From Escherichia phage CMSTMSU, in the sequence record MH494197.1: a DNA stretch of 64,000 nt, one strand, 5' to 3'. The position numbers and the translations under genes are program-made. Position 1 is the first letter of the stretch; each line of letters starts with the position of its first letter. This document shows, one piece after another, positions 36,876 through 62,216 of the stretch. Under the pieces are notes generated by a model. The model ran no database searches, was not told where the DNA came from, and worked only from the letters and a program-made list of their open reading frames with translations.

Positions 36876-37310
36876 TTACTTAATCATCTCGGTATAGTAC
36901 TCAGGTAACTCAACATCAGTAAATTTATACCACTTAGGCTTCATTTGGAGCTTCTCAATCAAGCGTTCACGAGACATTTTAATCTCTGAATCAGATGGTA
37001 CATAGTCCGCAAAACTCCGCAGGAAGCCGCTAATGTCGTTTAATTCAATGTTTTGAATCTTCATACCACGACGCAAACATTCGTTAACAATTTCAATATG
37101 ACGCTTCTGTAAGTACAATAACTTGTTGTAGAAGAATGTTACATGACCTGAACCTAACAGGTAAGTACTGTTAATTTTGAAATCACGTACACGCTTACGT
37201 GCTTGAACATGTTTTTGTACAGCACCAAATACACGTGGAAGTTCACGATATTCAGCCATCAGATGTTGGTCAGCAAGTTCTTTAACGTGTACTAAGTTAA
37301 TGCGGGTCAT
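36876..37310 (-). CDS. denV: pyrimidine dimer DNA glycosylase (T4 endonuclease V-like)
   Basis: Track ORF 36876..37367 trimmed to Met behind GAGAGGA; [35 protein letters not shown]...VRDFKI...GHVTFFY closely parallels T4 DenV as recalled from memory. Confidence 0.85.
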
Positions 37311-37314
37311 GTAT

Positions 37315-37533
37315 TCATCCTCTCGTCTTGATGAAATAATTATAGCAAAAGGGCTGACCGAAGTCAACCCGTTTTGAAAGGATTTTTAATGGTTTTCGTA
37401 CTGTATGTATTTTGCTTTGTAGTTCTTCTTCCCACAAAACATTTATATTATAAACTAAATCATTGTAGTCACTGTTCACAAAGATAAAATCATACTTCTC
37501 ATTAAAAGTATGAGAAATCAATTTCATTTTCAT
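37315..37533 (-). CDS. hypothetical protein (72 aa)
   Basis: Track ORF; 3' codons overlap the hairpin element, true stop uncertain. Confidence 0.3.
37339..37370 (-). promoter_or_regulatory. composite hairpin terminator with embedded promoter (TTGACT-17-TATAAT), promoter of denV
   Basis: Minus-strand GGGTTGACTTCGGTCAGCCCTTTTGCTATAAT. Confidence 0.65.
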
Positions 37534-37720
37534 AAGTATTATTGAACTTTTAAATTTATATGTTTCTTTTTCTTCTCCAGTTTTTGAACTTTGTATATTT
37601 TTATAAATTCCATGAATTCATCATTGGTCATTGTTTCAGCATCCAACAATACCCAACTTCACAATCTCATACCCGTCCAGATATCCGTAGGAACACTCAG
37701 GTGTTTCATAAGATGAACCA

Positions 37721-37907
37721 TCATAGATGCCCGCATTGGCTTTTGGAATTCTCAAGCAATCGTTGCAGTACTGATACGTCATCAAGAACGTAATACAAGT
37801 TAGCATATAAATCCGTTACAATACAGTACTCCAACATGTCAAATGTATCAATCGAAATTTCAACCTTAGCAAATCGTTTCTTTTCTTTATTATACAATGC
37901 GTACATA
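37721..37907 (-). CDS. hypothetical protein (62 aa)
   Basis: Track ORF 37721..37972 trimmed to internal ATG (MYALYNKEKKRFAKVE...). Confidence 0.3.
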
Positions 37908-37908
37908 T

Positions 37909-38278
37909 TAATCTCCATAATCAAGTTTAACCAACTTACCACACAGATACCCAAAGTTTTCTGGCTTCGCATCTGAATAGAAGAAGTCAGTACTCAACTC
38001 TGAATCCAATGCTAAAGCACACAACTCCACCCAAAATAAACCCTATGTTGTACTGGCTTACAACGTTTCTGTACAGTTACTAGTCCAGTACATGATGACC
38101 ACAACGTAGGGCAGATACCACTATCACTACGCTTGGAGTACTGCATCCAAGAACGTTCATTGAGGTTAGCTATCATCCCTGTTAAGAATAGCTTCCAACT
38201 TTTAAAGGTTGGAATCTTGATAGCATATTCCCCAATGAGTATGACAGTTCGTGTTGCACCTTTCAAATCTATATTCAT
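37909..38278 (-). CDS. small protein-kinase-like protein (frame break)
   Basis: Track ORF 38012..38323 gives Gly-loop/Lys region (NIDLKGATRTVILIGEYAIKIP); shifted frame gives catalytic-loop-like DAKPENFG and DFG-like KLDYGD. Confidence 0.4.
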
Positions 38279-38286
38279 ATTTTTAA

Positions 38287-38538
38287 TTAGAAGAACACAA
38301 ACCAAGTCCAGAATAAATTCCACACTACAAATAAAGACATAGTGGTTTTATGTACAATATCAGCAGTACTGGTCCATCCTCCACCGTGTCCTATTCCATT
38401 TATGAATAGAACTAAGAACAAGATACCATTTACTACAATAGTACATAGTAAGTACACAAACACATTCCATGCAAGTTCAGGAGATACTAACGTAAATGGT
38501 AAAACAATTAGTAGTATTAGAACTAATAAAATTTTCAT
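38287..38538 (-). CDS. small membrane protein (83 aa)
   Basis: Track ORF; strongly hydrophobic. Confidence 0.45.
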   Translation of the reverse strand: MKILLVLILLIVLPFTLVSPELAWNVFVYLLCTIVVNGILFLVLFINGIGHGGGWTSTADIVHKTTMSLFVVWNLFWTWFVFF

Positions 38539-38571
38539 TTATCGCCTCACTTAATTAACGTGACAATTAGT

Positions 38572-38751
38572 ACGAATCAGATTCCCAGTACTCGATTGCT
38601 TCTTTCAGCAATTCTTTAGCACGTTGTTTTGCAATGCGAGCGGGTAACAGATATGTGTACATTAACTGACGCTTCACTTCATTCAGTGAAAGCTGTTCAT
38701 GGTACAGTGCATCCATCAGTCGATTACGAGTACGTAGTTTCATATAAGTTA
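38572..38751 (-). CDS. hypothetical protein (59 aa)
   Basis: Minus-strand ATG to TAA, below track cutoff; translates MKLRTRNRLMDALYHEQLSLNEVKRQLMYTYLL... Confidence 0.4.
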
Positions 38752-38754
38752 TCC

Positions 38755-39309
38755 TTATTTCAAAGAATCATAGTAAGCAGTGTCAAAGATTGGAGTCATA
38801 ATAACATAGTCAATACGGTCAATGTAAGTTGAACTCCACATTTCTGGTTTGTCATAAAATTGACGCTCGCGTTCATTCATACGAGTCAGTACTTCTTCCA
38901 ATTTACTACGTGAAGCCATCAATGTATTACGCGATCCATAAGTGAAGTACTCAGTCCATTGATATTCATATTCAGTACTGATAGATTGAATAGTACCATC
39001 TTTGAAATGAGCTAAGGCATATCCTTTCTCTACAAAGTTATCAGGTGGAAGAACACCATCTGGATTAGTTTTCAATGCTTTGGTTAACTTTTCTTTAATT
39101 TCAGTTAACGTGCATACTGAACGAATGTTCTTCAGGTTTGATACTTGAAAATCACTGTACTTTCCAAAGAAAAATACACGCCAATCTTTAGGTTCATTAT
39201 CAGATACGGTAATATTCGGATGATGGGCGAGTAAACGAAGAAGGCCAGCTTTGTGACCGTTAATGTAGATCTCATGGATGTGGTTAGCAGTTTTCTTAAA
39301 AGTAATCAT
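38755..39309 (-). CDS. hypothetical protein (184 aa)
   Basis: Uninterrupted track ORF; no motif recognised. Confidence 0.6.
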   Translation of the reverse strand: MITFKKTANHIHEIYINGHKAGLLRLLAHHPNITVSDNEPKDWRVFFFGKYSDFQVSNLKNIRSVCTLTEIKEKLTKALKTNPDGVLPPDNFVEKGYALAHFKDGTIQSISTEYEYQWTEYFTYGSRNTLMASRSKLEEVLTRMNERERQFYDKPEMWSSTYIDRIDYVIMTPIFDTAYYDSLK

Positions 39310-39384
39310 GACAATTCCTCGATTGTGGGGATGAGAAGTTCATCCCTTGATAAACATTATACAGTACTGAATGAGTTTGTCAAC

Positions 39385-39762
39385 TCAAAATAAATTCATT
39401 TCATGTGCGTATTGTGGTTCAAGATGCGATAAGTTTTTGAAGCTTTCTTTCAACTCAGCATCATCTACATACACCGTGCGTACATTCCCCATAGTGAAAC
39501 CTACCCACACAGTCATGTCACCAGTCCCTAAGCGTGGCATTGATAGCGAACCATCAGGTGAAACATCAAACGCTACACTGAAGTCATCAGTAACAACGTC
39601 TGAACCATTTTCGAGAATAATACATCCACTATCTTTAAGCTTCTGAATGTGGATAGCAGCCTCTACAGCACGTTTGAAGTTATAGTAAGACTCTTTATCC
39701 TCAAACATTGATTGTTTAATCAGACGCTTGTTTAGCTCGGTTACTTTGTGCATTTGACGCAT
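39385..39762 (-). CDS. hypothetical protein (125 aa)
   Basis: Uninterrupted track ORF. Confidence 0.55.
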   Translation of the reverse strand: MRQMHKVTELNKRLIKQSMFEDKESYYNFKRAVEAAIHIQKLKDSGCIILENGSDVVTDDFSVAFDVSPDGSLSMPRLGTGDMTVWVGFTMGNVRTVYVDDAELKESFKNLSHLEPQYAHEMNLF

Positions 39763-39792
39763 TACTTATCCATCTCCCACAGTTGTAGAATT

Positions 39793-40017
39793 TCATAAGA
39801 GCCGGTGGTGCTGGATTCCTGATCTCAGGAATTGAGTACTTTTAGGATTACCACCAGCATTAAATTCGTCAAGTAATGATTCCAGTTCGCGACGATCCTG
39901 AACAACATAAACACAATCACCTGAACCTTCTTCGAGAATCATTTCACTTCCTGCACAATCCCATACTGTTGAGATACATAGAATCTCTTTTGTATTTTTA
40001 TTACGCAATGCAAACAT
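39793..40017 (-). CDS. hypothetical protein (74 aa)
   Basis: Track ORF. Confidence 0.4.
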   Translation of the reverse strand: MFALRNKNTKEILCISTVWDCAGSEMILEEGSGDCVYVVQDRRELESLLDEFNAGGNPKSTQFLRSGIQHHRLL

Positions 40018-40025
40018 AGTAATCC

Positions 40026-40229
40026 CTATCGATTTGGCATTTTATCTCGTAATTTCACAAGATAATCAATCACGGTACATCCTGAAATAAAGGTAATATA
40101 AGTACTGAAAAATCCTACCAGAATAAAGGCAACAAGCGTACTCCCATTTGGTTCTTCAGCTTTAATACCAATGATACCATCAGATGCAGTGAAAAATGTA
40201 GACATAAACGTTAGACAGATGTACATCAC
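40026..40229 (-). CDS. small membrane protein with basic C-terminal tail
   Basis: Track ORF; ends ...LVKLRDKMPNR. Confidence 0.5.
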   Translation of the reverse strand: MMYICLTFMSTFFTASDGIIGIKAEEPNGSTLVAFILVGFFSTYITFISGCTVIDYLVKLRDKMPNR

Positions 40230-40369
40230 TAATAAGAATTCATGTTCTAATGACGGATAAAACGGTCAAAAGTTTATAAAATTTAAAGTACAGTAGGAGT
40301 ATACCAACAAAGGCATAGAAAGTAAACAGTGTTGTTATGATATATGATATTAAATTTAAATTATACATC

Positions 40370-40660
40370 TCAACGCTCCGGTAGATTATCACGTAATGTT
40401 TTGATTCGATTATACAATTTCATTGCTACATTCCCAAATAAACCAGAACCCATTACTAAAATGTATGCGATGATCATAGTAATAATTACAATAGTACCTA
40501 GACTGTAATGTACTGCACTGATACCCATTATTGTTTCTACAATGATGTGAGCAACAGAAATCACCAAAAGTACTACTACAATTGGATGATTTGGATACAT
40601 TCGGTTAAACAATGTTTTGTACTTAAAGAAGTACAGTACTCCACCAAATAAGAAGTACAC
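40370..40660 (-). CDS. small membrane protein with basic C-terminal tail
   Basis: Track ORF; ends ...YNRIKTLRDNLPER. Confidence 0.5.
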   Translation of the reverse strand: MYFLFGGVLYFFKYKTLFNRMYPNHPIVVVLLVISVAHIIVETIMGISAVHYSLGTIVIITMIIAYILVMGSGLFGNVAMKLYNRIKTLRDNLPER

Positions 40661-40719
40661 AATGTAGATTGATGCAACGGCATAAGCAAACGCATTAGTG
40701 TAAAAATCATTATCAATCC

Positions 40720-40983
40720 TTACTTTTCAGGGATTTTATTACGCCACTCATCGATGCGATGAAGCAGTTTAAAGAGCAAAAATATTGGAACTGTAGCTAT
40801 CATAGTAGCAATTGTTAGTAATGTCAACACCGATACGAGATTTAATTCGTCCGTACTATATCCACATACCAGTGCTTCAATTATCCCCACGTACATGCAC
40901 AGAACATCAAAATGAAATTGGTGCATCGTAGTATATGCGTTGATACAAGGTCGTGTATCGGAAGAATGCAATAATGTAACCAA
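40720..40983 (-). CDS. small membrane protein with basic C-terminal tail
   Basis: Track ORF; ends ...LLHRIDEWRNKIPEK. Confidence 0.5.
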   Translation of the reverse strand: MVTLLHSSDTRPCINAYTTMHQFHFDVLCMYVGIIEALVCGYSTDELNLVSVLTLLTIATMIATVPIFLLFKLLHRIDEWRNKIPEK

Positions 40984-41063
40984 ACATGTAATACACCCAA
41001 ACTAACGATACTATATAAAATGATACCTTATTAATTAATTCAAAATGATGTTCCATTTTACCC

Positions 41064-41366
41064 CTACATATATTCTAAGAATAATGTATTAGCTTCGTCT
41101 ATGTTCTTAAGATAATACATGTAATACAGATTTGGTTGTCCGTCTTTTGAACTCAAATCAAAGTACTTTAAACTATGCACCTTCATGACAAAAACAAATA
41201 ATGACTTAAAACCAATCTCACCGTACTTAATAAACAGTTCATCTAAATGAATGTAACTCTTAGTTTCAGATAATTCCTTCACATCAGCTTCAATTTCTTG
41301 TAAGCGAAGTTTACCGATTAAGTTTTCAAATGAACGCATGATCTTGTTCCTTATGCTGGTACACAA
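41064..41366 (-). CDS. hypothetical protein (100 aa)
   Basis: Track ORF. Confidence 0.45.
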   Translation of the reverse strand: MCTSIRNKIMRSFENLIGKLRLQEIEADVKELSETKSYIHLDELFIKYGEIGFKSLFVFVMKVHSLKYFDLSSKDGQPNLYYMYYLKNIDEANTLFLEYM

Positions 41367-41520
41367 TTTTTTATAATGAATACACGTTTCATGAATGAAC
41401 TTTCATATACGTACTTCAGTTTACCATTTTCACGCATACGATGAAACACATCTTTACCGCTAGTACTCCATGTTGAACCAGTCTCTGCATCAACATTGTT
41501 CATTACACCAGATGTTACGT

Positions 41521-41763
41521 TTACCCGTACTTGAAGCTAAAGGTACTACCTTCTTCTACCAGAGGGATTGGTGTACTACGTTCATGTTCCAGTACAAGTT
41601 TACTGCCGATGATGTTGTACGAAGTTATCTTGCATTTTAAAACACCCATCTCTTGTGCAGTTGGGTAATTCTTCTCAAACAAATCAGATACTTCATTTGC
41701 ATAACAAACTGAACTAATCATAAGAAGTAATGAACTGATAGAACGGAAAATAACTTTTAACAT
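41521..41763 (-). CDS. secreted hypothetical protein (80 aa)
   Basis: Track ORF; signal-peptide-like MLKVIFRSISSLLLMISSVCYA; GGAGG upstream. Confidence 0.55.
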   Translation of the reverse strand: MLKVIFRSISSLLLMISSVCYANEVSDLFEKNYPTAQEMGVLKCKITSYNIIGSKLVLEHERSTPIPLVEEGSTFSFKYG

Positions 41764-41789
41764 GTTTGCCTCCAGTAGTTGATGAAATG

Positions 41790-41821
41790 ATTATAGCAAA
41801 AGGGCCGACCGAAGTCAACCC
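41790..41821 (-). promoter_or_regulatory. composite hairpin terminator with embedded promoter (TTGACT-17-TATAAT)
   Basis: Minus-strand GGGTTGACTTCGGTCGGCCCTTTTGCTATAAT upstream of 41521..41763. Confidence 0.6.
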
Positions 41822-41842
41822 TTTTCTTTTATATTTTACATG

Positions 41843-42440
41843 TCATGTCTGGTTTTGGCTTTTCATTCTTTGGCTTTTCAAATGGATTTGGCTTAGGGAC
41901 TTTTTATCTTTGTCATCTTTAGCTTTCTTTTTGTTTTCTTTTTTATCCGATTTGTCAGCTTTGTCTTTCTTATCTTTTGAATCTTTGTCAGCTTTAGATT
42001 GTGGTTCCTCACATACAGCAGCTTTTGGCTCCGGCATATCACATGAGTTATCCACAGGTTTAATGAACTCTTTACAGTTGTAGAAGTATAAACTTTCATT
42101 GGTAGTAAGATTGTGGAATCTAAAGGTATTTTCACCATTAGTATATACTTTCTTAGTACTCTCAATATCATTACACATTGCAACCGTGTCACCGGAATTC
42201 ACGCTCGATACCTATTACATCCGACTTACGTTCAGATAGTATTCCAGACGTATATCGATCTTTGTTATCAAATGCATTGAACCCTATAGTTTTATTATTG
42301 TCATGTACCAATCCTCTAGTGTAAGACTTCGTATAGAACTCACCGTTTCTAAACTCCTGTCTAGCAATGGAGCACTGGTATTCAGTACTATAAACTATAT
42401 CAGTAAACAATACAAGTGAAAATAAAACATATTTAAACAT
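41843..42440 (-). CDS. secreted protein with Lys/Asp-rich tail (frame break)
   Basis: Track ORF 42189..42440 (signal-peptide-like MFKYVLFSLVLFTDIVYS) continues by one frame break into 41843..42202 (..KDSKDKKDKADKSDKKENKKKAKDDKDKK). Confidence 0.4.
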
Positions 42441-42480
42441 TGCATTACCTCTTATAAAACCCTCAACAATATTTACAAAA

Positions 42481-42498
42481 GGTTGACCGAAGTCAACC
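42481..42498 (-). terminator. hairpin terminator (GGTTGAC-CGAA-GTCAACC)
   Basis: Palindromic copy of the recurring hairpin flanked by A/T runs. Confidence 0.5.
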
Positions 42499-42849
42499 TT
42501 TTAAATGTTTATTTTTATCTTTTCCAACACCACGGTCGTACTCTTTGAATGAGTTATCAAGTGTAGTTAGTGCATACTCATATGCTTCTGGTGATTCAAT
42601 GTCAACATCATCTGCACCATTTACTAAATCAGCCCACGCCTTTTGAAGTTTACGAGCATTGTTACCAACATTATCTTTAATCCAACTAATGTTTTGTTGA
42701 TACTTTTACTATCAGCACCTGCTTTTTACCAATCTCGGATATCCACATCATTAGCTTTTGAAGTTCATGAATTGATTTATCGGTCATTTCAAGATGTTCT
42801 TCTTCCATACCTTCGGAATCAGATGAACTAACGTCAATTCCATGTTTAG

Positions 42850-44014
42850 CTAATAGTTTACCAAGTTCAAAGAATGCAGCTTCAGCAGGAAGTCATAACC
42901 TTTCTCTTTGTAGTTATTCCATGCACTATCAAACTCGTCAACAAAACGGTTAGCATAATCTGGATTTTTAACTAATGCTTTATATACTGCCATTGCATGT
43001 TCAAAACCTTCTTTATCTGACCCAAACTCTTCCATCTCAGGACGATGAATGTATCCATCCATATCAACGGTATCAGGTAGATCTTCTTGCTCAGGCTCAA
43101 CATCTTTCTGTTCAACTGCACCTTCTTCATCTGCACGCTTTAGATAACCATCTGGTGTTACCTTCTCACCATGTTCGGCTTCATACTTTTTCATAGTGTT
43201 GAATGCAGCATCCATAGCTGTTACGAAGCGACTTTTCTCACCTTGTACATAAGATTTAAGTGCACTGTTAACTGCATCTGATACGAGCTTAACCTTATCG
43301 TCTTTACCTTCTAAACGGTTTTCAAGTTTAGCCAGTACATTCTTGACTTGCTGGGCATTAGCACGGTCTGCTTTACCAATACTATCAAAAGTTTTAAGAA
43401 TACCATCAAGACTTGCTTCACCCTGTTCAGGTTCTTTGGAATCTTCTTTGTGTGTACCTTCAAGTGCACGCATGATAGTACTGAATACTTCAGTAGGTTC
43501 AGTGCTCTTATTACCTTTCATTGCATCAAGTACAGCTTGTGCTTTACCTTTGAGTTCTTCTTTAGGAACTGCCTGTAGTGCTTTGACAATACCCTGAATC
43601 AACTGTGGTTTGTTAGCAAAGATCTTACCTAAGTTATCAGATAACTCTTTAACAGGGTTAGCTGCTTTAGGAGCTTCTGGTTTTGGTTCTTCTTTAGGAA
43701 CTGCTTGTTCTTTCTCAGCACGTTCCATATCAGCAAGGCGTTGTTTCTGTGTTGCGTTAAGAAGACCTAATGAGTTAACATAACGTAGCTTTTCTAGCTC
43801 AGTCATGTTCTCAGTACTCTTAACTTCACCTGCTTCTGCGTTTGCCTTACCAGCTAAACCTGTCCCTTGATTACGTGAACCACGTGACCCTGTCCTGCTT
43901 GGTAGCTATTTTGACGACGATTGCGTTCACTCCATTTATCAGAGTGACCTGCCATGTTCCCGCCATTTTTATCAGTAAATTGACGGCATTTGATTTCTCT
44001 CCATAGATTTCATA
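42850..44014 (-). CDS. highly charged Lys/Glu-rich protein (frame breaks at 5' end)
   Basis: Track ORF 42850..43806 extended upstream through shifted frames to ATG near 44014; contains LRYVNSLGLL. Confidence 0.45.
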
Positions 44015-44041
44015 TTGTTTATTCTCTATGACTATATTTAT

Positions 44042-44073
44042 AGTATAAAGAAAAGGTTGACCGAAGTCAACCC
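44042..44073 (-). promoter_or_regulatory. composite hairpin terminator with embedded promoter (TTGACT-17-TATACT)
   Basis: Minus-strand GGGTTGACTTCGGTCAACC hairpin then TTTTCTTTATACT. Confidence 0.5.
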
Positions 44074-44094
44074 TATTTTCACTGTACTATACCA

Positions 44095-44391
44095 TTAGTA
44101 GTTACAGTCAGCTTTCGCTGTGAATGTTTTACTTTCTCCGCGTTGTGTGGTGATTCGTCCGAGTAAAGTAGTTTTGTCAATAGTCATTGTAGTTAGTACT
44201 GGAACATTACCTTCAAAGTCAATAGCTTTGAAATTGTAGGTGGTTTCATTCTCCACTACACTTGGACCAAAGAGTTCATATGTGTTGATTTCAAGTGTGT
44301 CACCATCCGAACGCATCAGTGTACAGTCCAGATTAGGAGTAGCCAGTACAGGGAAAGCCAAACACATCATCATTGCAATAATTAATTTCAT
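44095..44391 (-). CDS. secreted hypothetical protein
   Basis: Track ORF 44095..44421 trimmed to MKLIIAMMMCLAFPVLA signal-peptide-like start. Confidence 0.5.
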   Translation of the reverse strand: MKLIIAMMMCLAFPVLATPNLDCTLMRSDGDTLEINTYELFGPSVVENETTYNFKAIDFEGNVPVLTTMTIDKTTLLGRITTQRGESKTFTAKADCNY

Positions 44392-44810
44392 TTCACTTCT
44401 CCTGTTTTTTCTTAGGATCAACCAATGACCAAATGAAGAATCCGAGAATTACAAGTACCCACAGAATCATGATAAAGAAAGCAAACAGTACAATAGTATT
44501 TGTCAAAAGAAATACAATAGAATGTTCGACCCAATACTACATACAATCAATGCAGCTTCATGTTTAACAACACGAATGGCTGTAATGAGTGCGGGAAGAA
44601 ATCCGACAAATAACAGTACTAACGCATATAGTGATAATGTTTCAGCCATGATATCCCTTATTTGGTTTGTTCAGCACTAGGTGTATTGATATAGGTGTCA
44701 ATTGAATAACATACTGTACCCACTACAACAGCAGCGATTAGGGCAGCGATGATGAATTTAGTACCTTGCATAATTTAATACCTCACGTTGTTTGTATTTT
44801 GTATCACTTG

Positions 44811-44843
44811 ATGAAAATATTATACGACAAAGGGCTGACCAAA
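44811..44843 (-). promoter_or_regulatory. composite hairpin terminator with embedded promoter (TTGACT-18-TATAAT)
   Basis: Minus-strand GGGTTGACTTTGGTCAGCCCTTTGTCGTATAAT; small membrane ORFs follow. Confidence 0.55.
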
Positions 44844-44936
44844 GTCAACCCTTTTAATTATTTTTAAACTTATGTTTTTCGCCTTCAATAGAGTTCACGA
44901 TGTCATCATGAATCTTGCGAAGGTTATGAGTTTTCT

Positions 44937-45239
44937 TTAGTGCTTCATGTAGTGCACGGAATGCTGCGTGTACTGTTGCCTTGAAGTGCTCTTTAGAGTC
45001 ACTTTAAGTTTCTCAATGATATCACGTACATAAATTGGATGTTCTTCAAATACACGATTCAATTCATGGCCTAGTGATTCTAAACTGAAAGCTTTTTCGC
45101 GTGAAGGACGATCATGTGCAAGACTTTGGTCAGGCTTTAGTAGACCTAGTGAATCAAGATACTTATGCTTATGTGCATTATCAATTCCAGAAATATCCAC
45201 ATCATGCGATGGATCTTTCTTATTCCATTTATCAACCAT
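44937..45239 (-). CDS. hypothetical charged protein (100 aa)
   Basis: Track ORF; contains YLDSLGLL, as in 42850..44014. Confidence 0.5.
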   Translation of the reverse strand: MVDKWNKKDPSHDVDISGIDNAHKHKYLDSLGLLKPDQSLAHDRPSREKAFSLESLGHELNRVFEEHPIYVRDIIEKLKVTLKSTSRQQYTQHSVHYMKH

Positions 45240-45354
45240 TTCATACTCCTTAAAGAGATAAATTACTTTAATATTTATACTTCATGTGCTGTTTATTTCT
45301 ACAGACACTTAAGATTATATCACGTAAGAAATGGTTGTCCCAAAGTCAAATCAG

Positions 45355-45790
45355 TACTGTTTAAGTTCTGAACTGAAGATAAAGGAATCCATATCTTCTA
45401 GTGTTAACTTCAAGTCCGGTGTGTACTTTAATATCACACATTCAGGTTTCTTAATGGCAGCTTGATAGGCAGCAATTGCCAACTGTTGAAGCTGCTCTGG
45501 CGTGTAGTTCATGCGTTCTGCATTGAATACGATGTTCTTAATATCACCACCGGCAGCTTCTCGAACTCACGCATAACAGCAGCCATCACATCATCAGATG
45601 TATTCTTATAAGCCCAATGAGGTAGTTGCATAACGTCATAAATCTCGCCATTGTCGTTCATAAGAGAGATCCATTTTTACCGTCCGATGAACTAAACAGA
45701 CGACCTTTAATAGCAATGTTCTCTACCAAATTAACAAAGGCAAATATGTCTTGCTCATTTAGCTCAATGCTATTAACGTTAATCCAACCC
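45355..45790 (-). CDS. hypothetical protein (frame breaks)
   Basis: Minus-strand ATG at 45790 (MGWINVNSIELNEQDIF...) continuing through two shifted frames to ...SSELKQY. Confidence 0.3.
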
Positions 45791-46375
45791 ATACTACATC
45801 TCCAGTTATAAATCACGAACGACATTCATTAAACACAATTTGGGCTTTATCGCATTCAAAACCCATATGCATTCTTTGTAAGTTGCTATTATAGCATCTA
45901 AATGCTCAGTTACAATGCTTTCTTGAAAATATTCTTCTTCATTGAGCTTTGCTAAATTAGTCACATCACATGTAGGTACTATAGTTCTGGATTGTACACC
46001 CATTCCATTATTGATATTGGTAAAATGTAAAATTTGTACTTCACCACACCGTTATCTACACTTATGATACATGTCAAATGTTCCAACTCAGTTAGTTCGG
46101 TATTACAAGTGACATGGATGAATCCAGCATTATAGGCTCTATAATCATCTACTAATATCTCAAAATCATTACGTTCAAATATAAGTGAAATGAGTTTGTC
46201 TTGTGGTTTAACCTTCTGAAATTTTAACGAATTTACGTATGATACTTTAATCTTAGATGAAATTATCTTTTACTAAGTGCAGTTAATTCTTCTTTAGCCT
46301 TAAAAGTTAAAGTTATAGGTCTAAATCTAGAACTTTTGTTCTTCTTTGATACTTTGAACTTACCTTTTCTATTCA

Positions 46376-46666
46376 TTAATTAAACCCCACATAAAGTAAA
46401 AGGGATGGCATATTACCAACCCTATATCTTTTATTTTTAATAGATTCATAAAGCAGAAACAACCAAATAAACATTGATGAACAAACTACTACTGGGATTA
46501 ATGTAAATTCAGTAAAGAATAAAAGTATTCCATAAGTTAGTATGCAACATAAGTTTACGTACATAATTGCTTCTGCATTTTTATTTTTCATTTTATATGC
46601 AATGAATGTTGGTGACCACATTACCAAAAATGCAAACAACGCACATATGATGATTATAGTTTCCAT
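46376..46666 (-). CDS. small membrane protein
   Basis: Track ORF; hydrophobic. Confidence 0.45.
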   Translation of the reverse strand: METIIIICALFAFLVMWSPTFIAYKMKNKNAEAIMYVNLCCILTYGILLFFTEFTLIPVVVCSSMFIWLFLLYESIKNKRYRVGNMPSLLLYVGFN

Positions 46667-46746
46667 ATTACACCTCCGTAAAATAATGTTCTGTACTGCT
46701 ATTATTTACAGAGAATATCTGAAAAATTGATCTGATCAATTTTTAG

Positions 46747-46959
46747 TCACTTTACAATTTGAATCTTTTTGTACTGAACAATCACATTGTTCTTAAGGAA
46801 GATGATGGTCCCATAGGAACCTTGGGCTGCAACTTCAACAATATGGTTCTTATATGTTTCAGTATATCCTTCCATCTCGTTGATACACACTACATGATAC
46901 TTTGGTTTAGCACATACAACAGTACTCAAGAATAGCAGTACTAGTACTAGATATTTCAT
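46747..46959 (-). CDS. secreted hypothetical protein (70 aa)
   Basis: Track ORF; signal-peptide-like MKYLVLVLLFLSTVVCA. Confidence 0.5.
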   Translation of the reverse strand: MKYLVLVLLFLSTVVCAKPKYHVVCINEMEGYTETYKNHIVEVAAQGSYGTIIFLKNNVIVQYKKIQIVK

Positions 46960-47009
46960 TTTATTACCTTATAAACAAGAACAGGAATCCTTTTACGGAT
47001 TCCTATAAT

Positions 47010-47303
47010 TTAGTCCTTTAATGTACCATTGTGTAAACGATTATACACATCATTGCGACGCAACTCAACAATATCTTCAGCGTACTTCATTGTAAACGCC
47101 CATGCTTTTGGATGCACATTAAGCTTCATACGAATGCGATTCTTCATCAATTCACCGCTTAGGCGAACAAACTCATGAACACCACGACTTCCGTACTCTG
47201 AAATCAAATCATTGATGTACATGTTGCGAAGGGTTTCGTCTGTACATTCTTTAACCATTTCTACGTCTGCCACGATGCTTGCATTTACTGAAGTACTGAT
47301 CAT
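47010..47303 (-). CDS. hypothetical protein (97 aa)
   Basis: Track ORF; AAGGT upstream of ATG. Confidence 0.5.
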   Translation of the reverse strand: MISTSVNASIVADVEMVKECTDETLRNMYINDLISEYGSRGVHEFVRLSGELMKNRIRMKLNVHPKAWAFTMKYAEDIVELRRNDVYNRLHNGTLKD

Positions 47304-47349
47304 TTTAAGTTACCTTATTTGAATTGGACTGTAATTTTATCACCTTCAA

Positions 47350-47577
47350 CTACGAACTTACAGTCGTAGCGACGGCCATATCCATGTACATATGCTCAGA
47401 ATACCACGGAACATCAATCTCAGGATGCTCTGCGTATTGTAGCACTTCACGGTCACCAACAGTAGTGATGACAAAGGAATGTTCATCTCTCGCAAAACAA
47501 CTCAGCACCGGTGAACGATTGACAAACTCAGTGTCGTTACGCAAAGTAAAACCATTGTATTGTAATTTAAGCTTCAT
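47350..47577 (-). CDS. hypothetical protein (75 aa)
   Basis: Track ORF; AGAGGA upstream of ATG. Confidence 0.45.
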   Translation of the reverse strand: MKLKLQYNGFTLRNDTEFVNRSPVLSCFARDEHSFVITTVGDREVLQYAEHPEIDVPWYSEHMYMDMAVATTVSS

Positions 47578-47591
47578 GATTATCCTCTAAG

Positions 47592-47825
47592 TTAATACCA
47601 TTCTTTTAAACCATCAAGTTCGGCTATGTGAGTAATTATAACACAGATAACACTCAGGTCAAGCATTATTTGCTCATAATTTAATTTTATTCTATCATCA
47701 TTGTATGCTCGAAAAACAACATCAAAGTCAAAGTAGTTATCGTTTTCATCATTCATTGGAATGATTCTATATCTACGTCTACCATCATCATTGAATACAG
47801 TCAAACACTGTTTGAATTTCTTCAT
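47592..47825 (-). CDS. hypothetical protein
   Basis: Track ORF 47592..47840 begins at a TTG; trimmed to first ATG (MKKFKQCLTVF...). Confidence 0.35.
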   Translation of the reverse strand: MKKFKQCLTVFNDDGRRRYRIIPMNDENDNYFDFDVVFRAYNDDRIKLNYEQIMLDLSVICVIITHIAELDGLKEWY

Positions 47826-47927
47826 TAACTGTGTAGTCAATGCATTGTAATATGCAACATCATATTGTGTACAACGTGGGTCATTGGGTAGATAAAACGA
47901 TACAAATTTTTTAATTCTATTTGAGTC

Positions 47928-48368
47928 TTATCCATATACAGCCTCATGTATTACTCTTTTACTTTGGCGGTACTCATCCTTTGCTTCTTTCACTGACATG
48001 ATACGAACCAGTTTAGCACTACCACAATAGTACTGAACCTGACTACGACCAATGTCAACATGACTATCAGGAACTTCATATACTGATACAGCAAACCCTG
48101 CACGATGTAATTTACCCAAGTCCATAGTAAAGAACTTAAACAAATCATTCAAACTCTGACAGCCAAATGCCCAGCCACGTTTGATTGAATAGATTCCATC
48201 TTCAGTTGGTTCTGGTTGGAATTGCGAAGGCGTGGTCATGCACAAACGGTCAAATCCATTTTTAGTACTGTATCGTGAAGAGTACCGTGCGAACGGACCT
48301 ACTGTTTTGCTGGATCTAAGTTAGGTTCAATATAACTGAATTTAAGTTCAAAACGATATACGTACATA
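47928..48368 (-). CDS. hypothetical protein (frame break)
   Basis: Track ORF 47928..48245 plus upstream ATG at 48368 (MYVYRFELKF...) in a shifted frame. Confidence 0.35.
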
Positions 48369-48395
48369 ATTAAAATCCCAGTATTTGATGAAATA

Positions 48396-48427
48396 ATTAT
48401 AACAAAAAGGCTGACCGAAGTCAACCT
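48396..48427 (-). promoter_or_regulatory. composite hairpin terminator with embedded promoter (TTGACT-17-TATAAT)
   Basis: Minus-strand AGGTTGACTTCGGTCAGCCTTTTTGTTATAAT. Confidence 0.55.
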
Positions 48428-48928
48428 TTATTTTGAAGTTCTTGAACTAATTGTCGTACTTCTTTGATGTTACGACACTGCTTTACAGTGAAGTAATCAT
48501 ACTTACGACCATAGGTTCTTGGATCATCACCTTCCATATACTGCTGCACATCAAAGATTTGTAAGTAGGGATGCTGCATAACACGAATGTTACCACATTG
48601 ATAAATCAACATATGTTTAGTCCTCATATTTACACAAGCCACCGAATGTTGCCTGTTTTGCTGCCTTACGCATCATCACAAGTTTAACATACTGTTCGCC
48701 ATTACTATCTTCATATACATCAACTTGAAGAAATGCAAGCATATTGGGATCAGTATCGTTCGAGTACTGCGTAAAACTAATGTCACCTACGGTATGTTCT
48801 TTAACAAAATTATACACTTCACCGTCGATATAAACGATAGTATGGTCATCGCTATCACCTTGGTAAATGTGTTTAATATCACCTTCAGTACAGACTAGTC
48901 CGTAATGGTTCTGCATAAGACATACCAC
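48421..48928 (-). CDS. hypothetical protein (frame break)
   Basis: Track ORFs 48617..48928 (starts at GTG) and 48421..48642 overlap in different frames and probably form one gene. Confidence 0.35.
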
Positions 48929-49018
48929 ATATAATCATACAAACAAAAACAAAATTACTTTCATGATTTGTTTCCTTTGGATAAAATGGATTTCTTCACT
49001 TTGTACTGCTTGTAGTTA

Positions 49019-49342
49019 TTATACCAAACATCGGTTACATAAATCAAGTACCAAAGTGATGGATATAATGATAGACCAATAAAACTGAAAAATACTTGTA
49101 TTAATAAAACCAATACAGTGCAGTGTAAATGCAACGATTAGAATACCAATCGTAATCATACTAGCTGAATATGGTACACTATCAGATGCGAACCATGAAT
49201 CAACCTTACTAATTAAAGTATACTTTCCAGTACTGACAGCATAAACAATTGCTGCTATACCAAATAATGCCATTGAAATAGTTATTACTGAGTTAATAAG
49301 AATCGGAGTAATTAATACATAAAGCATTACATCGTTTATCAT
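49019..49342 (-). CDS. small membrane protein (107 aa)
   Basis: Track ORF; multiple hydrophobic segments. Confidence 0.5.
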   Translation of the reverse strand: MINDVMLYVLITPILINSVITISMALFGIAAIVYAVSTGKYTLISKVDSWFASDSVPYSASMITIGILIVAFTLHCIGFINTSIFQFYWSIIISITLVLDLCNRCLV

Positions 49343-49525
49343 TTGTTATACCTTACAGTTCACAATGAATATTCAATTTATCAATGTCCTGATCGCGTTT
49401 ATTCGACGAATCTTGATAAATGACTATGTAAATATCCCCATCCTTTGTCTTGGGGTCCACTATCAATATTACATTTGCTATTATACCAGCATCTGATTTA
49501 TATGTCGATACCTTTTTATTCCCAA

Positions 49526-49747
49526 TCAAACTCTCGGCCTGAAACGGTAAACCTCATCATCTACGACAATATTGTTTCCATTTTGTGGGTCATTAGAAAG
49601 TACATGCCATGTTCCATCGTTTCCCATACAATCAAGGTAAGCAGGTACGGCTGTACTGAACCTTGAATAAAGCATGAATACTACAAACACCATTATCATT
49701 CTTATATATTTTTTCATTATAACCTCTAACGAGCAATACTTCTGCAC
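49526..49747 (-). CDS. secreted or membrane-anchored hypothetical protein (73 aa)
   Basis: Track ORF; hydrophobic N-terminus MKKYIRMIMVFVVFMLYS. Confidence 0.45.
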   Translation of the reverse strand: MQKYCSLEVIMKKYIRMIMVFVVFMLYSRFSTAVPAYLDCMGNDGTWHVLSNDPQNGNNIVVDDEVYRFRPRV

Positions 49748-49794
49748 ATATTATTTGTACAGAAGTATTTAATACTATTAGAGACTTTTGAACG

Positions 49795-50121
49795 TTACTT
49801 CTTACTAGTTAGTTTATCTTTCAAGATATCAACCCAAATGGAAACTTTACCAGCAAACAATGCATTAGTAAACCATACAATACCAACAATGTTCTCAACT
49901 AAATTCATAATTGAAACAAATGGTCCAATTGGTAATACAAAACTTACTAACCATGACAGTACTGAAATAAGTACTACAACGAAGAAGATTCGTGCAATGG
50001 GTGAGTCTAACATAAACAACTCACGAAACTCATCACGCTCGGTTTCGTCTTTAATGAAGAATTCGAAAACCATAACCCATAACAGAATTAGAGCAGGAAT
50101 TGAAATTAGAACTGATAACAT
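49795..50121 (-). CDS. small membrane protein (108 aa)
   Basis: Track ORF; hydrophobic. Confidence 0.5.
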   Translation of the reverse strand: MLSVLISIPALILLWVMVFEFFIKDETERDEFRELFMLDSPIARIFFVVVLISVLSWLVSFVLPIGPFVSIMNLVENIVGIVWFTNALFAGKVSIWVDILKDKLTSKK

Positions 50122-50179
50122 GTTTTATATCCTCAAGTTTAAGTGTTAAGTTTCAGACTACAAGAACCATTATACAGTA

Positions 50180-50422
50180 CTACAAACGTTTGTCAACAGG
50201 TTTTTCTTCAATAAGCATAAGATAACTGAAGACGAATAGTAATACAGATGCCATGTCAATAACCGTAAAGTTCACGGGAATGATAATAGACACTAGAACG
50301 AGTGCCACGTTTAGCAAGAATACCGTAGTGATATCCACCAGCTTTCGTTTAGTGGCTACTGCTACTAGTGTAGGGTAGAACATAAACAATAATGCGACTA
50401 CAAAACTCAATACTAGATACAT
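50180..50422 (-). CDS. small membrane protein (80 aa)
   Basis: Track ORF; ends ...LIEEKPVDKRL. Confidence 0.45.
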   Translation of the reverse strand: MYLVLSFVVALLFMFYPTLVAVATKRKLVDITTVFLLNVALVLVSIIIPVNFTVIDMASVLLFVFSYLMLIEEKPVDKRL

Positions 50423-50429
50423 TTCTTTT

Positions 50430-51072
50430 CACCTTAAGAAAATTATAACATAAAACAACCTCAACATCTGGCTCATCATACAAGTACTCAAAGCGTTCTT
50501 TACTACGCTTAGTACCGATGTACTCACCATTCTTATGCCAACGCCACCCACCACTCTCTGGTTGGTCAGACTTCAGTACTGGATGATAGCACAAGACAAT
50601 TTCTTCTGGACCTTCAATAAGGTTCTTGTACTTCGTCAAAATCTGTTCAAGCGTATCTGCTACACCATAAGATGGGTGCATAAGATAAGACTCAGGGCGT
50701 GCACGACCACTTGGTAGAATGTCATCAGTACTATTAAAGATAGCACGGAAGTCTTCTGACGTGTATAAACTTCCATCTTCATGGATCATGGGATACTCAT
50801 CCACTACATCATAATCAGTGAAGTGTTCAATCGCATGTCCGGTCTGTAACCTGCGAGGATACCTGTATGTTTCGTCTGTACAATAGTCATAACAGATGTA
50901 CTATTGTTTACATTAGGATCATGAATTTCAGCCCAAAAGGATGATGAGGATCAAATGTAGCATTAACTAAAGTACAATCACCAATGTAGTCGAAATTAGT
51001 TTCTTTAAAGTTTAAAGAAACACCACGCAATGCCCAATCAGGAGAAGTGATGAAATTAAGATTAACTAACAT
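50430..51072 (-). CDS. hypothetical protein (frame break, 3' end approximate)
   Basis: ATG at 51072 behind GAGGA (MLVNLNFITSPDWALRGVSL...) continues by frame break into track ORF 50349..50804. Confidence 0.4.
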
Positions 51073-51310
51073 AGTATCCTCAGTTGCGGTTGTTTTGATA
51101 CAGTTATTATATCAAAGACGTGTCAATTTGTACAACATTTATTGTAACTATTTCGTACATAAAATCAATTGCATTGAACTCTGCATACCACTCTACAATC
51201 TCACAAGCAGCATCAACTTGGTTTTCGCATTAACACGTCTGGCATAGGTGCTGCTCATTTTGAATCTACCATATTCATAGACATTGTAGACACCATGACA
51301 CCACCACATT

Positions 51311-51529
51311 TTAGTCATTAATGCTAGGCCATACAGTGAATTGTAAGTTCTGGTATTCGAATTTACCAATATCATTCTTCTTACGGAATGATTCTTCAAC
51401 CTGAATTTCTGCGTCGTACTGACCATCGGCCTTTACTACGTACTTAAAATTTTCTACATGTGAAAAACGATACCCGTCTCCGTCTTGCTTGGATACTTGA
51501 ACTGACCCTTCAACTAGATATAAATTCAT
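51311..51529 (-). CDS. hypothetical protein (72 aa)
   Basis: Track ORF; overlapping track ORF 51193..51426 may be its continuation. Confidence 0.4.
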   Translation of the reverse strand: MNLYLVEGSVQVSKQDGDGYRFSHVENFKYVVKADGQYDAEIQVEESFRKKNDIGKFEYQNLQFTVWPSIND

Positions 51530-51558
51530 TTGTCATTCTCCATCATATTCAGTGAGTA

Positions 51559-51753
51559 TTACACTATGTACTGTTTCAACATAGCGTTGTGTTTTGGTGT
51601 GTTGTACTTAGTTACTTCATCAAACAATTTAAATAGTGCATGTGTTGGACTTAATGCACGAACAAACACATCAATCTTCTGTACTTCTTTCTTATAGCCA
51701 CGTACATTATTAAACTCAGACACATGCTCATAAACAATGTAGTAACGATTCAT
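51559..51753 (-). CDS. hypothetical protein (64 aa)
   Basis: Track ORF. Confidence 0.4.
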   Translation of the reverse strand: MNRYYIVYEHVSEFNNVRGYKKEVQKIDVFVRALSPTHALFKLFDEVTKYNTPKHNAMLKQYIV

Positions 51754-62103: not shown

Positions 62104-62216
62104 AAAATCCCTTATTGATATTCCATTTAAGTATACGTCAAAACACAACTCAGTCAAGGTGCTTTTTACCTATCTAGAATAAATACGTTATAATAATTAT
62201 ACCAATGGAGGGATGA

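What the first reader, a model, noticed from the sequence alone, without database searches (positions are those of the whole stretch)
42850..45239. Two charged proteins sharing an N-proximal Y(V/L)(N/D)SLGLL motif
The ~380-aa Lys/Glu-rich protein and the 100-aa protein at 44937..45239 both carry LRYVNSLGLL or KYLDSLGLL near the N-terminus. Their charged, low-complexity composition would suit internal-head or DNA-associated proteins, and the shared peptide could be a targeting or processing site.
Basis: inference. Interest (0 to 1): 0.35.

Follow-up and report, generated by a model that had tools for sequence, protein, structure and literature searches.

The report
Paralogous late virion proteins, jumbo phage
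The shared peptide is real, but it marks two duplicated virion-protein genes of a 121Q/RaK2-type giant coliphage, an already catalogued family of unknown role, rather than a general targeting or cutting signal.

Summary
The motif is present at the stated place. The two ORFs are fragments, because the window carries one-sided 1-nt deletions (59 deletions and no insertions in 14.5 kb against phage fEgEco12). The true genes encode 495 aa (42509..43989, minus strand) and 127 aa (44858..45239, minus strand). They are orthologues of 121Q gp201/gp199 and phAPEC6 gp035c/gp037c.

The peptide is not an isolated shared signal. The whole small protein is homologous to the first ~180 aa of the large one (hhalign 99.5%, E 2e-22; PHROGs 16530 and 20398). 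The shared module is a basic Gly/Arg/Asn-rich disordered leader, a short helix ending in Y-x-N-S-LGLL, a linker, and a four-helix bundle.

Both orthologues were detected in phAPEC6 virions by published mass spectrometry, and the stand-alone form CBB_38 was detected in CBB virions. Both genes sit behind the only two TATAAATA late promoters in the 64-kb window.

A six-frame scan of a complete related genome finds the motif and the module in these two genes only. No conserved (L/I)xE protease site exists, and CBB peptides flanking and containing the motif are present in virions. So this is not a general signal and not a processing site.

The likely role, by inference, is an uncleaved anchoring element of abundant virion proteins, possibly head-internal. 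No fold or family outside PHROGs matches.

The parts
42509..43989 (-). Large paralogue. The true gene encodes 495 aa (orthologue of fEgEco12 g555, 121Q gp201, phAPEC6 gp035c; phrog_20398). In the window it is broken by 7 missing nucleotides; the longest in-frame piece is the ORF 42850..43806.
   Evidence: indels at 42517, 42696, 42728, 42890, 43888, 43985; phrog_20398, E 5e-245; orthologue detected in virions by MS.
44858..45239 (-). Small paralogue. The true gene encodes 127 aa (orthologue of fEgEco12 g551, 121Q gp199, phAPEC6 gp037c; phrog_16530). In the window it is frameshifted at 44996 and 44861; the in-window ORF is 44937..45239.
   Evidence: (phrog_16530, E 8e-55); (orthologue detected in virions by MS).
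43759..43782 (-). YVNSLGLL in the large protein (aa 71-78). It is the end of a short predicted helix (ELEKLRYVNS) followed by a Gly-containing LGLL turn. Y, N, L, G and L are invariant in 40 large-family sequences.
   Evidence: coordinates; invariant columns Y79 N81 L83 G84 L85 in P0001 numbering; helix 73-82 in P0001 numbering, pLDDT about 80.
45138..45161 (-). YLDSLGLL in the small protein (aa 27-34), at the same position of the homologous module.
   Evidence: (Y27 L31 G32 L34 invariant; helix 21-30; aligned to the large-family motif).
43450..43989 (-). N-terminal module of the large protein (aa 1 to about 180), homologous to the whole small protein. It consists of a basic Gly/Arg/Asn/Ser-rich disordered leader (aa 1 to about 57), the motif helix, a second helix, a Pro/Lys/Glu linker, and a four-helix bundle (aa about 113-177).
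   Evidence: (aa 1-180 hit phrog_16530, E 2e-40).
44035..44042 (-). TATAAATA, a T4-type late promoter, 45 nt upstream of the ATG of the large gene.
   Evidence: sequence; only 2 sites in the window against 13±4 expected; the same motif precedes the MCP, scaffold and other structural genes in phAPEC6; literature.
45272..45279 (-). TATAAATA late promoter 32 nt upstream of the ATG of the small gene, with an AAGGAG ribosome-binding site between them.
42481..42498 (-). Hairpin GGTTGAC-TTCG-GTCAACC followed by a T-run. Terminator-like site just after the stop of the large gene.
44833..44850 (-). Hairpin GGTTGAC-TTTG-GTCAGCC followed by a T-run. Terminator-like site just after the stop of the small gene.
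44055..44072 (-). A hairpin of the same family immediately upstream of the large gene's late promoter. It insulates that gene from the genes inserted between the two paralogues.

Best explanation
What is shown. The two ORFs are fragments of two paralogous late genes of a 121Q/PBECO4-type (Asteriusvirus, RaK2-like) jumbo myophage. Their products belong to one clade-specific family of virion proteins (PHROGs 16530 and 20398).

The Y-x-(N/D)-S-LGLL peptide is the most conserved element of a shared N-terminal module:
- an invariant MP start;
- a basic Gly/Arg/Asn/Ser-rich disordered leader, internally deleted in the small paralogue;
- a short helix ending in the LGLL turn;
- a linker and a four-helix bundle.

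The large paralogue adds a variable, acidic, all-helical C-terminal extension. Each gene is a self-contained late transcription unit (TATAAATA promoter, gene, hairpin terminator) set among non-late genes. The orthologous proteins are found in virions. The motif is retained in the mature protein of the stand-alone orthologue, CBB_38.

What is inferred. The leader plus motif helix is an uncleaved anchoring or incorporation element that binds a conserved virion partner, either a capsid-interior or core component or the packaged DNA. It holds the bundle, and in the large paralogue the variable extension, in the particle. The most likely location is inside the head, as a component of the internal protein mass or inner body seen in 121Q and phAPEC6.
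For: Identity and homology:
- The window is 98.3% identical to fEgEco12, and its relatives annotate both genes as virion structural proteins.
- Paralogy: BLASTP E 5e-9, reciprocal PHROG hits, hhalign 99.5% with E 1.8e-22.
- A 171-aa small-type member (P0080) keeps the full large-type leader.

Presence in virions:
- phAPEC6 gp035c and gp037c and CBB_38 were detected by MS.
- CBB_38 appears in 46 peptide rows across the gel slices, against 146 rows for the MCP. This suggests an abundant protein.

Late expression:
- The only two TATAAATA sites in 64 kb (13±4 expected) lie 32-45 nt upstream of the two ATGs on the correct strand.
- The third ATAAATA in the window precedes the orthologue of phAPEC6 gp077, another MS-detected virion protein.
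- In phAPEC6 the motif precedes the MCP, scaffold, protease, sheath and baseplate genes. ATAAATA was proposed as the late promoter of this clade.

The leader plus motif as a functional core:
- The module is conserved across the clade.
- 82-aa proteins P0097 and P0098 consist of leader plus EEKLKYFQSLGL(I/V)KN.. only. One sits on a 237-kb contig with its own ATAAATA and terminator.

Motif retained in the mature protein:
- CBB peptides at aa 50-62 and aa 74-97 were detected.

Context for an internal location:
- An inner body of unknown composition exists in 121Q and phAPEC6.
- The C-terminal part is variable and modular.
Against: - No experiment places either protein inside the head. MS shows only association with virions.
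- The binding partner is unknown, and no complex could be modelled here.
- The large protein is acidic (pI 5.1), which argues against a simple DNA-condensing role.
- No leader peptide (aa 1-49) was detected for CBB_38, although four or five tryptic candidates exist. The leader may be removed or modified, or it may simply be poorly detected.
- Fold searches give nothing informative.
- The RaK2-like clade also has unusual capsid and tail 'hairs', which could equally need clade-specific small structural proteins.
Confidence: 0.5

Rival explanations
1. The N-proximal peptide is a T4-style capsid-targeting propeptide or a prohead-protease processing site. It would bring the proteins into the prohead core and then be cut off by the gp21-like protease.
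For: - The clade has a T4 gp21-like protease (phAPEC6 gp227c).
- Its MCP is processed: 42.2 to 37 kDa in 121Q.
- The MCP has an LTE|S site at aa 41-43, aligned with the LTE|A site that I recall for T4 gp23 (the T4 site is from my own knowledge).
- No leader peptide (aa 1-49) was seen for CBB_38.
- T4 internal proteins share an N-terminal targeting propeptide (PMC9026906).
Against: - No (L/I)xE site is conserved in at least half of the 40 large-family sequences. The only one in the small family lies inside a bundle helix.
- CBB_38 has no Glu at all in aa 1-65.
- The peptides LNTMPSQGVDTSK (aa 50-62) and SLGLMPGAEPTPEPEVQPEPKPER (aa 74-97) are present in CBB virions, so the motif is not removed.
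- The motif lies 26-70 residues from the N-terminus and bears no resemblance to the 10-aa T4 CTS.
Confidence: 0.08
2. The motif is a general address label shared by several virion (head) proteins of the phage.
For: Two virion proteins carry it.
Against: - Six-frame scans of the window and of the complete phAPEC6 genome find it only in these two genes.
- An HMM of the whole module hits only these two (E 1e-88 and 2.5e-36; the next best is E 3.4).
- tblastn finds at most the family members in each genome of the clade.
Confidence: 0.03
3. The proteins are external structural components, for example capsid decoration or cement proteins or anchors of the capsid and tail 'hair' fibres typical of RaK2-like phages. 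On this reading the conserved N-module binds the outside of the shell or the sheath.
For: - The family is restricted to the clade that has the hairy fibres.
- phAPEC6 cryo-EM shows unassigned decoration and fibre-anchoring densities.
- The proteins appear abundant.
- The variable C-terminal region could reflect surface exposure.
Against: - Nothing specific supports it.
- An all-helical bundle with a long basic disordered leader is unusual for decoration proteins, which are mostly beta-rich. This rests on my own knowledge.
- 82-aa members with no folded domain are hard to picture as decoration.
- No fold match to known decoration or fibre proteins was found.
Confidence: 0.25
4. The shared peptide is a chance or low-complexity resemblance between unrelated charged proteins.
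For: Both proteins are rich in charged residues.
Against: Profile-profile E 1.8e-22 over 136 columns, reciprocal PHROG hits, and conservation of the motif across genera.
Confidence: 0.01
5. The large protein is a non-structural DNA-handling protein, as in the 'chromosome segregation / SMC / SbcC-like' annotation of phAPEC6 gp035c.
For: The annotation in MK817115.
Against: - No Pfam, NCBIfam or PDB sequence match.
- The protein has a late promoter and was detected in virions.
- The resemblance is most likely charged helical sequence matching coiled-coil proteins.
Confidence: 0.03

Closest known systems
PHROG families phrog_20398 and phrog_16530 ('virion structural protein'), e.g. 121Q gp201/gp199, phAPEC6 gp035c/gp037c, CBB_38, GAP32_032, Serratia BF gp027, RaK2 ORF275
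   Same: Direct orthologues and paralogues. HMM matches at E 5e-245 and 8e-55. Same late-gene context. Detected in virions by MS.
   Different: Nothing differs in kind. This analysis adds that the two PHROGs are one family sharing an N-terminal module. The window copies are fragmented by sequence errors.
T4 internal proteins IPI/IPII/IPIII and Alt, with their capsid targeting sequence (CTS)
   Same: Virion proteins of a T4-related head, encoded away from the head gene cluster. A conserved N-proximal segment is joined to divergent C-terminal parts. They are expressed late, and they occur as several paralogues (for the T4 side).
   Different: The T4 CTS is the first 10 residues and is cleaved off by gp21 after Glu. 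Here the conserved element is 80-180 aa long, the motif lies 26-78 aa in, no conserved cleavage site exists, and the motif is present in mature virions. There is no sequence similarity, and an internal location is unproven.
phiKZ / 201phi2-1 / SPN3US inner-body and ejection proteins
   Same: Jumbo phages with a bubblegram-positive inner body (121Q and phAPEC6 also have one). Paralogous families of head proteins of unknown fold.
   Different: No sequence similarity between phiKZ inner-body proteins and any phAPEC6 protein (PMC7247149). No fold hits. phiKZ-type proteins are extensively processed after S/A/G-x-E, for which there is no evidence here.
Encapsulin cargo-loading peptides (from memory only: short Gly-containing hydrophobic motifs such as ..SLGIGSL.. 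that dock cargo to the interior of an HK97-fold shell)
   Same: A short hydrophobic Gly-containing peptide (SLGLL) next to a disordered region. In the 82-aa members it lies near the C-terminus. The phage shell has the HK97 fold.
   Different: This is a resemblance recalled from memory and was not tested. There is no evidence of binding to the MCP.

Membership tests
PHROG phrog_20398 / phrog_16530 virion structural protein family of RaK2-like jumbo phages | Significant match to the family HMMs | tested here: met
   Large protein: phrog_20398 E 5e-245 and phrog_16530 E 2e-40 (aa 1-180). Small protein: phrog_16530 E 8e-55 and phrog_20398 E 2e-4.
PHROG phrog_20398 / phrog_16530 virion structural protein family of RaK2-like jumbo phages | Physical presence in virions | not testable with these tools
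   Not testable for this phage. Published MS shows it for the orthologues phAPEC6 gp035c/gp037c and CBB_38.
T4-type late genes | TATAAATA late promoter at a suitable distance upstream, in a genome encoding a gp55-like late sigma factor | tested here: met
   the only two sites in the window, 32-45 nt upstream of the ATGs; the same motif precedes MCP and scaffold genes in phAPEC6. A gp55-like sigma factor is present as phAPEC6 gp237c. Literature support.
T4 CTS-bearing internal head proteins | About 10-residue targeting sequence at the extreme N-terminus, similar among the paralogues | tested here: not met
   The shared motif lies at aa 69-78 and aa 26-34. The extreme N-termini differ (MPGQFTDKNGG... 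against MVDKWNKKD...).
T4 CTS-bearing internal head proteins | Removal of the targeting peptide by the prohead protease after Glu in an (L/I)xE context | tested here: not met
   No conserved site. CBB_38 has no Glu in aa 1-65. Peptides on both sides of the motif, and one including it, were detected in virions.
T4 CTS-bearing internal head proteins | Location inside the head and ejection with the DNA | not testable with these tools
   Only whole-virion MS is available.
phiKZ-type inner-body proteins | Sequence or fold homology to phiKZ gp93/95/97-type proteins | tested here: not met
   The BFVD fold search returned only members of this clade. The phAPEC6 authors report no similarity.
phiKZ-type inner-body proteins | Being part of the bubblegram-positive inner body | not testable with these tools
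   An inner body exists in 121Q and phAPEC6, but its composition is unknown.
SMC / chromosome segregation proteins (annotation of phAPEC6 gp035c) | SMC/SbcC ATPase head domains and a long coiled coil | tested here: not met
   No Pfam, NCBIfam or PDB match. The AF2 model is made of short helical bundles.
Encapsulin-type cargo-loading peptide | Docking of the peptide into a pocket on the inner face of the HK97-fold shell protein | not tested
   A resemblance recalled from memory. No complex prediction was possible.

The most novel reading that the evidence does not exclude
The basic disordered leader plus the EKLKYFNSLGLL helix would be a new kind of uncleaved virion-incorporation tag of RaK2-like jumbo phages. 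It is autonomous in the 82-aa proteins and fused to a bundle and to variable extensions elsewhere. On this reading it docks abundant internal proteins, the so far unidentified inner-body or ejected proteins of 121Q-type phages, to the capsid interior or to DNA. It could then be used to load foreign cargo into giant capsids.
Probability: 0.2. Interest if true: 0.6.

Novelty: new member of a known kind. Interest (0 to 1): 0.3.

Why it matters
As it stands this is an ordinary result. The two genes are orthologues of already deposited and PHROG-classified 'virion structural proteins', and the shared peptide is explained by gene duplication.

Five smaller points are useful:
- The two PHROGs are one family with a defined modular architecture.
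- The family's conserved core is a leader plus an amphipathic helix that also exists as a free-standing 82-aa protein.
- The genes are isolated late-promoter units inside a non-late region. This gives a cheap way to spot virion genes in these poorly annotated 350-kb genomes.
- The 'chromosome segregation protein' label on phAPEC6 gp035c should be dropped.
- The window sequence is riddled with single-base deletions, so every ORF-based reading of it needs caution.

If the proteins turn out to be inner-body or ejected proteins, they would be the first identified components of the inner body of a non-phiKZ jumbo phage.

Tried and rejected
- Pfam on the window ORFs and on the full-length proteins gave only sub-threshold noise (Tau95, ATG1 MIT and similar). 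NCBIfam gave nothing. A PDB sequence profile search gave nothing.
- AlphaFold models were only moderate: pLDDT 69 and pTM 0.26 for the large protein, pLDDT 65 and pTM 0.5 for the small one.
- hhalign found no internal repeat of the bundle in the C-terminal part of the large protein.
- The exhaustive representative search (search of protein representatives) was switched off.
- I looked for the leader fused to unrelated cargo domains, which would have supported a targeting tag. I found only stand-alone forms, large forms and 82-aa forms.
- I tried to infer N-terminal processing from published coverage figures. The phAPEC6 figures are compatible with many peptide combinations. Only the CBB supplement gave peptide-level data. 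Its search was fully tryptic, so true mature N-termini cannot be read from it.
- Searching the CBB supplement for MCP N-terminal peptides using phAPEC6 sequences found nothing usable.
- The RaK2 paper does not mention ORF275 or ORF276, and RaK2 ORF276 is unrelated to the small paralogue.
- The fEgEco12 paper has no proteomics.
Full report
**What the window is.** The region 42500-45600 matches 36 phage records. Eight cover it fully at about 98% identity (fEgEco12, vB_Ec-M-J, BF17, Ecwhy_1, WPEC3, WPEC5 and others). 121Q and PBECO4 match at about 91%. These are Asteriusvirus jumbo myophages of the RaK2-like group, with genomes of about 350-380 kb.

**The gene models.**
- In fEgEco12 and 121Q the locus holds a 495-aa 'virion structural protein' (g555 / gp201) and a 127-aa 'virion structural protein' (g551 / gp199).
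- The window shows only a 318-aa and a 100-aa ORF. It lacks single bases at 12 places in these 3.1 kb, and every difference is a deletion in the window.
- Over 14.5 kb aligned to fEgEco12 there are 59 deletions, no insertions, and 43 deletions in homopolymers. This one-sided pattern points to sequencing or assembly error rather than biology.
- The true genes span 42509..43989 and 44858..45239 on the minus strand. The motif lies at aa 69-78 and aa 26-34.

**Observation check.** The peptides are present as described. The pattern [YF]x[NDQ]xLG[LIM][LM] occurs nowhere else in any frame of the window. It also occurs nowhere else in the complete 352,598-bp genome of the relative phAPEC6, which I fetched in eight pieces. 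There it is found only in gp035c and gp037c.

**The motif reflects paralogy, not an independent shared signal.**
- BLASTP of the two intact proteins gives 26% identity over 115 aa, E 5e-9.
- The large protein hits phrog_20398 (E 5e-245), and its first 180 aa also hit the small protein's family phrog_16530 (E 2e-40). The small protein hits both families in return.
- Profile-profile comparison of 13 small-family and 40 large-family sequences gives 99.5% probability, E 1.8e-22. The whole small protein aligns to aa 9-191 of the large reference, in P0001 numbering.
- One 171-aa small-type member (P0080) still has the complete large-type N-terminus, MPSNFTDKNGANMAGHSDKW...GSRGSRNQGTG. The 121Q-type small protein is therefore the same module with an internal deletion of the Gly/Arg-rich stretch.
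- An HMM of the module finds only gp035c and gp037c in the six-frame translation of phAPEC6 (E 1e-88 and 2.5e-36; the next hit has E 3.4).

**Architecture.**
- AlphaFold (moderate confidence) predicts the following for the large protein, converted to true numbering:

| Segment | Approximate residues |
|---|---|
| Disordered basic leader | 1-57 |
| Short helix ELEKLRYVNS | 65-74 |
| LGLL turn | 75-78 |
| Second helix | 80-96 |
| Disordered Pro/Lys/Glu linker | about 98-110 |
| Four-helix bundle | 113-177 |
| Series of helical bundles | to the C-terminus |

- The small protein has the motif helix (aa 21-30), a disordered linker and the four-helix bundle (aa 53-126).
- The leader has net charge +5, and the C-terminal part of the large protein has net charge -24. 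Overall pI is 5.1 for the large protein and 9.05 for the small one.
- The region after the module is modular and variable among relatives, which range from 417 to 606 aa and differ by large insertions and deletions.

**Distribution.**
- The module is found across the RaK2-like clade: Asteriusvirus, RaK2/K64-1, Salmonella Munch/7t3, Serratia BF, Erwinia pEa_SNUABM, Yersinia fHe-Yen9-04, CBB, GAP32 and Xanthomonas XbC2.
- In the BF/CBB/GAP32 lineages there is one stand-alone protein of about 155-172 aa.
- A profile of leader plus motif alone also recovers two 82-aa proteins (P0097, P0098). They consist only of the leader and ...DTTKMSPEEKLKYFQSLGL(I/V)KNI.K.
- P0097 lies on a 237-kb metagenomic contig. 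The single ATAAATA of the 20-kb locus sits 30 nt upstream of its ATG, and a hairpin follows its stop.
- The leader plus motif helix is therefore the conserved core of the family, and the bundle is optional.

**Expression.**
- TATAAATA, the T4 late promoter, occurs only twice in the 64-kb window against 13±4 expected. Both copies are on the minus strand, 45 and 32 nt upstream of the two start codons.
- The shorter ATAAATA was proposed as the late promoter of CBB and GAP32. It occurs three times in the window against 41±7 expected.
- The third copy precedes the frameshifted orthologue of phAPEC6 gp077, which was itself detected in virions.
- In phAPEC6 there are 15 TATAAATA and 54 ATAAATA sites genome-wide. 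They precede the MCP, scaffold, protease, sheath, baseplate and many MS-detected virion genes, as well as gp035c and gp037c.
- Hairpins of the form GGTTGAC-TTYG-GTCARCC plus a T-run follow both genes. Eight such hairpins occur in the window, all on the minus strand, against none expected.
- Each paralogue is thus its own late transcription unit.

**Presence in virions (from the literature).**
- phAPEC6 virion ESI-MS/MS lists gp035c (46.4 kDa, 8 unique peptides, 28.8% coverage) and gp037c (14.8 kDa, 5 peptides, 48%) (PMC7247149 Table 1).
- CBB_38 is listed with 9 peptides and 56.61% coverage (PMC5259590 Table 4).
- 121Q and phAPEC6 both show a phiKZ-like inner body by bubblegram imaging. Its proteins are unidentified.

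**Is the motif a processing site?**
- The clade's MCP is processed: 42.2 to 37 kDa in 121Q.
- The phAPEC6 MCP has ...VMLTE|SATSG... at aa 39-48, just before the conserved mature region. I recall T4 gp23 being cut at ...FLTE|AEIGG..., which is my own knowledge. A T4-like (L/I)xE specificity is therefore likely.
- No (L/I)xE site is conserved in half or more of the large-family sequences. The only conserved one in the small family (IIE|K) lies inside a bundle helix.
- CBB_38 has no Glu in aa 1-65.
- The peptide-level CBB data (supplement file 6) were searched against a 189-aa six-frame ORF, which offsets positions by +17. They contain LNTMPSQGVDTSK (aa 50-62), SLGLMPGAEPTPEPEVQPEPKPER (aa 74-97, starting inside the motif), and peptides covering most of aa 98-172.
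- On the peptide set I infer from these hits, 107 of 189 residues are covered. That reproduces the published 56.61%.
- The motif is therefore part of the mature virion protein.
- None of the leader peptides (MPGTFR, NSATLAGHSDK, WSNSNR, SASSHDAGQGSR, NQGTGIQGK) was found. This could mean removal or modification of aa 1-49, or poor recovery of very hydrophilic peptides. The search was fully tryptic, so it cannot settle the point.

**Known families.** No Pfam, NCBIfam, PDB-sequence or fold match was found beyond the clade's own proteins. The 'chromosome segregation protein' label of phAPEC6 gp035c rests on an E-value of 0.039 in the record's note and is not supported.

**Interpretation.**
- Shown: the two genes are paralogous and late-promoter-driven, and their orthologues are virion-associated. 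The motif is the most conserved element of a shared N-terminal module, and it stays in the mature protein.
- Refuted: that it is a signal shared with other virion proteins.
- Not supported: that it is a conserved protease site.
- Inferred: the leader plus motif helix anchors the proteins in the particle by binding a conserved partner, and the location is inside the head.
  - In favour: an abundant protein driven by a perfect late promoter, a T4-related head, an unexplained inner body, and a conserved N-proximal part joined to a variable C-terminal part, as in T4 internal proteins.
  - Against certainty: nothing localises the proteins, and the clade-specific capsid and tail hairs offer an equally clade-specific alternative.
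- Confidence: I put the paralogy and virion-protein statements above 0.9, the anchoring role at about 0.4, and the internal location at about 0.35.

**Verdict.** This is a real but ordinary feature.

Noticed in passing
window 36900..51600 (probably the whole window): Against fEgEco12 (98.3% identical) the window has 59 deletions and no insertions in 14.5 kb, 43 of them in homopolymer runs. This looks like an uncorrected long-read type error profile. Most ORFs in the window are therefore likely to be split or truncated.
   Followed up: yes
window 44035-44042, 45272-45279, 62179-62185: The T4-type late-promoter words are extremely depleted: TATAAATA occurs 2 times against 13±4 expected, and ATAAATA 3 times against 41±7. 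All three copies precede orthologues of MS-verified virion genes of phAPEC6 (gp035c, gp037c, gp077). This gives a simple marker of late virion genes in these genomes.
   Followed up: yes
window 62217..62489 and 62549..63373 (+): These two adjacent plus-strand ORFs (90 aa and 274 aa) together correspond, by position, to phAPEC6 gp077. That is a 384-aa virion protein detected with 10 peptides and 37.8% coverage. The gene is split in the window by a frameshift and is preceded by ATAAATA at 62179.
   Followed up: partly
window 36636, 37352, 41803, 42481, 44055, 44833, 48409, 56492 (all minus strand): Eight copies of a near-identical terminator-like hairpin, GGTTGAC-TTYG-GTCARCC followed by a T-run, against none expected by chance. 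A single hairpin sequence is reused between many genes.
   Followed up: partly
window 44095..44650 (-): Between the two paralogues the window and the fEgEco12-type phages carry extra small genes that are missing in 121Q, where only a 37-aa ORF separates them. The extra genes include a 108-aa protein with a signal or lipoprotein-like N-terminus and a small membrane protein, annotated 'immunity to superinfection' and 'membrane protein' in vB_Ec-M-J. This is an insertion into the paralogue pair.
   Followed up: no
window 41843..42440 (-): Just downstream of the large gene lie an 83-aa protein, annotated 'lytic conversion lipoprotein' in fEgEco12 (42189..42440), and a 119-aa ORF with a Lys/Asp-rich low-complexity tail (41843..42202).
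   Followed up: no
L017 10001-10249 (ENA ERZ27285371 k141_3892, 237-kb contig) and P0098: 82-aa proteins made only of the family's disordered leader plus the EEKLKYFQSLGL(I/V)KN motif. The copy on L017 has its own ATAAATA promoter and hairpin terminator. This is the minimal form of the family, found in a more distant uncultured jumbo phage.
   Followed up: partly
phAPEC6 MK817115 27482..28735 (L006): gp035c is annotated 'chromosome segregation protein' on the strength of an E = 0.039 similarity. It is the orthologue of the large virion protein and has no SMC or SbcC features.
   Followed up: yes
CBB KU574722 14240..14758 (L016): The stand-alone family member CBB_38 lies inside the 22.5-kb terminal repeat of CBB, so it is present twice per packaged genome.
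   Followed up: no
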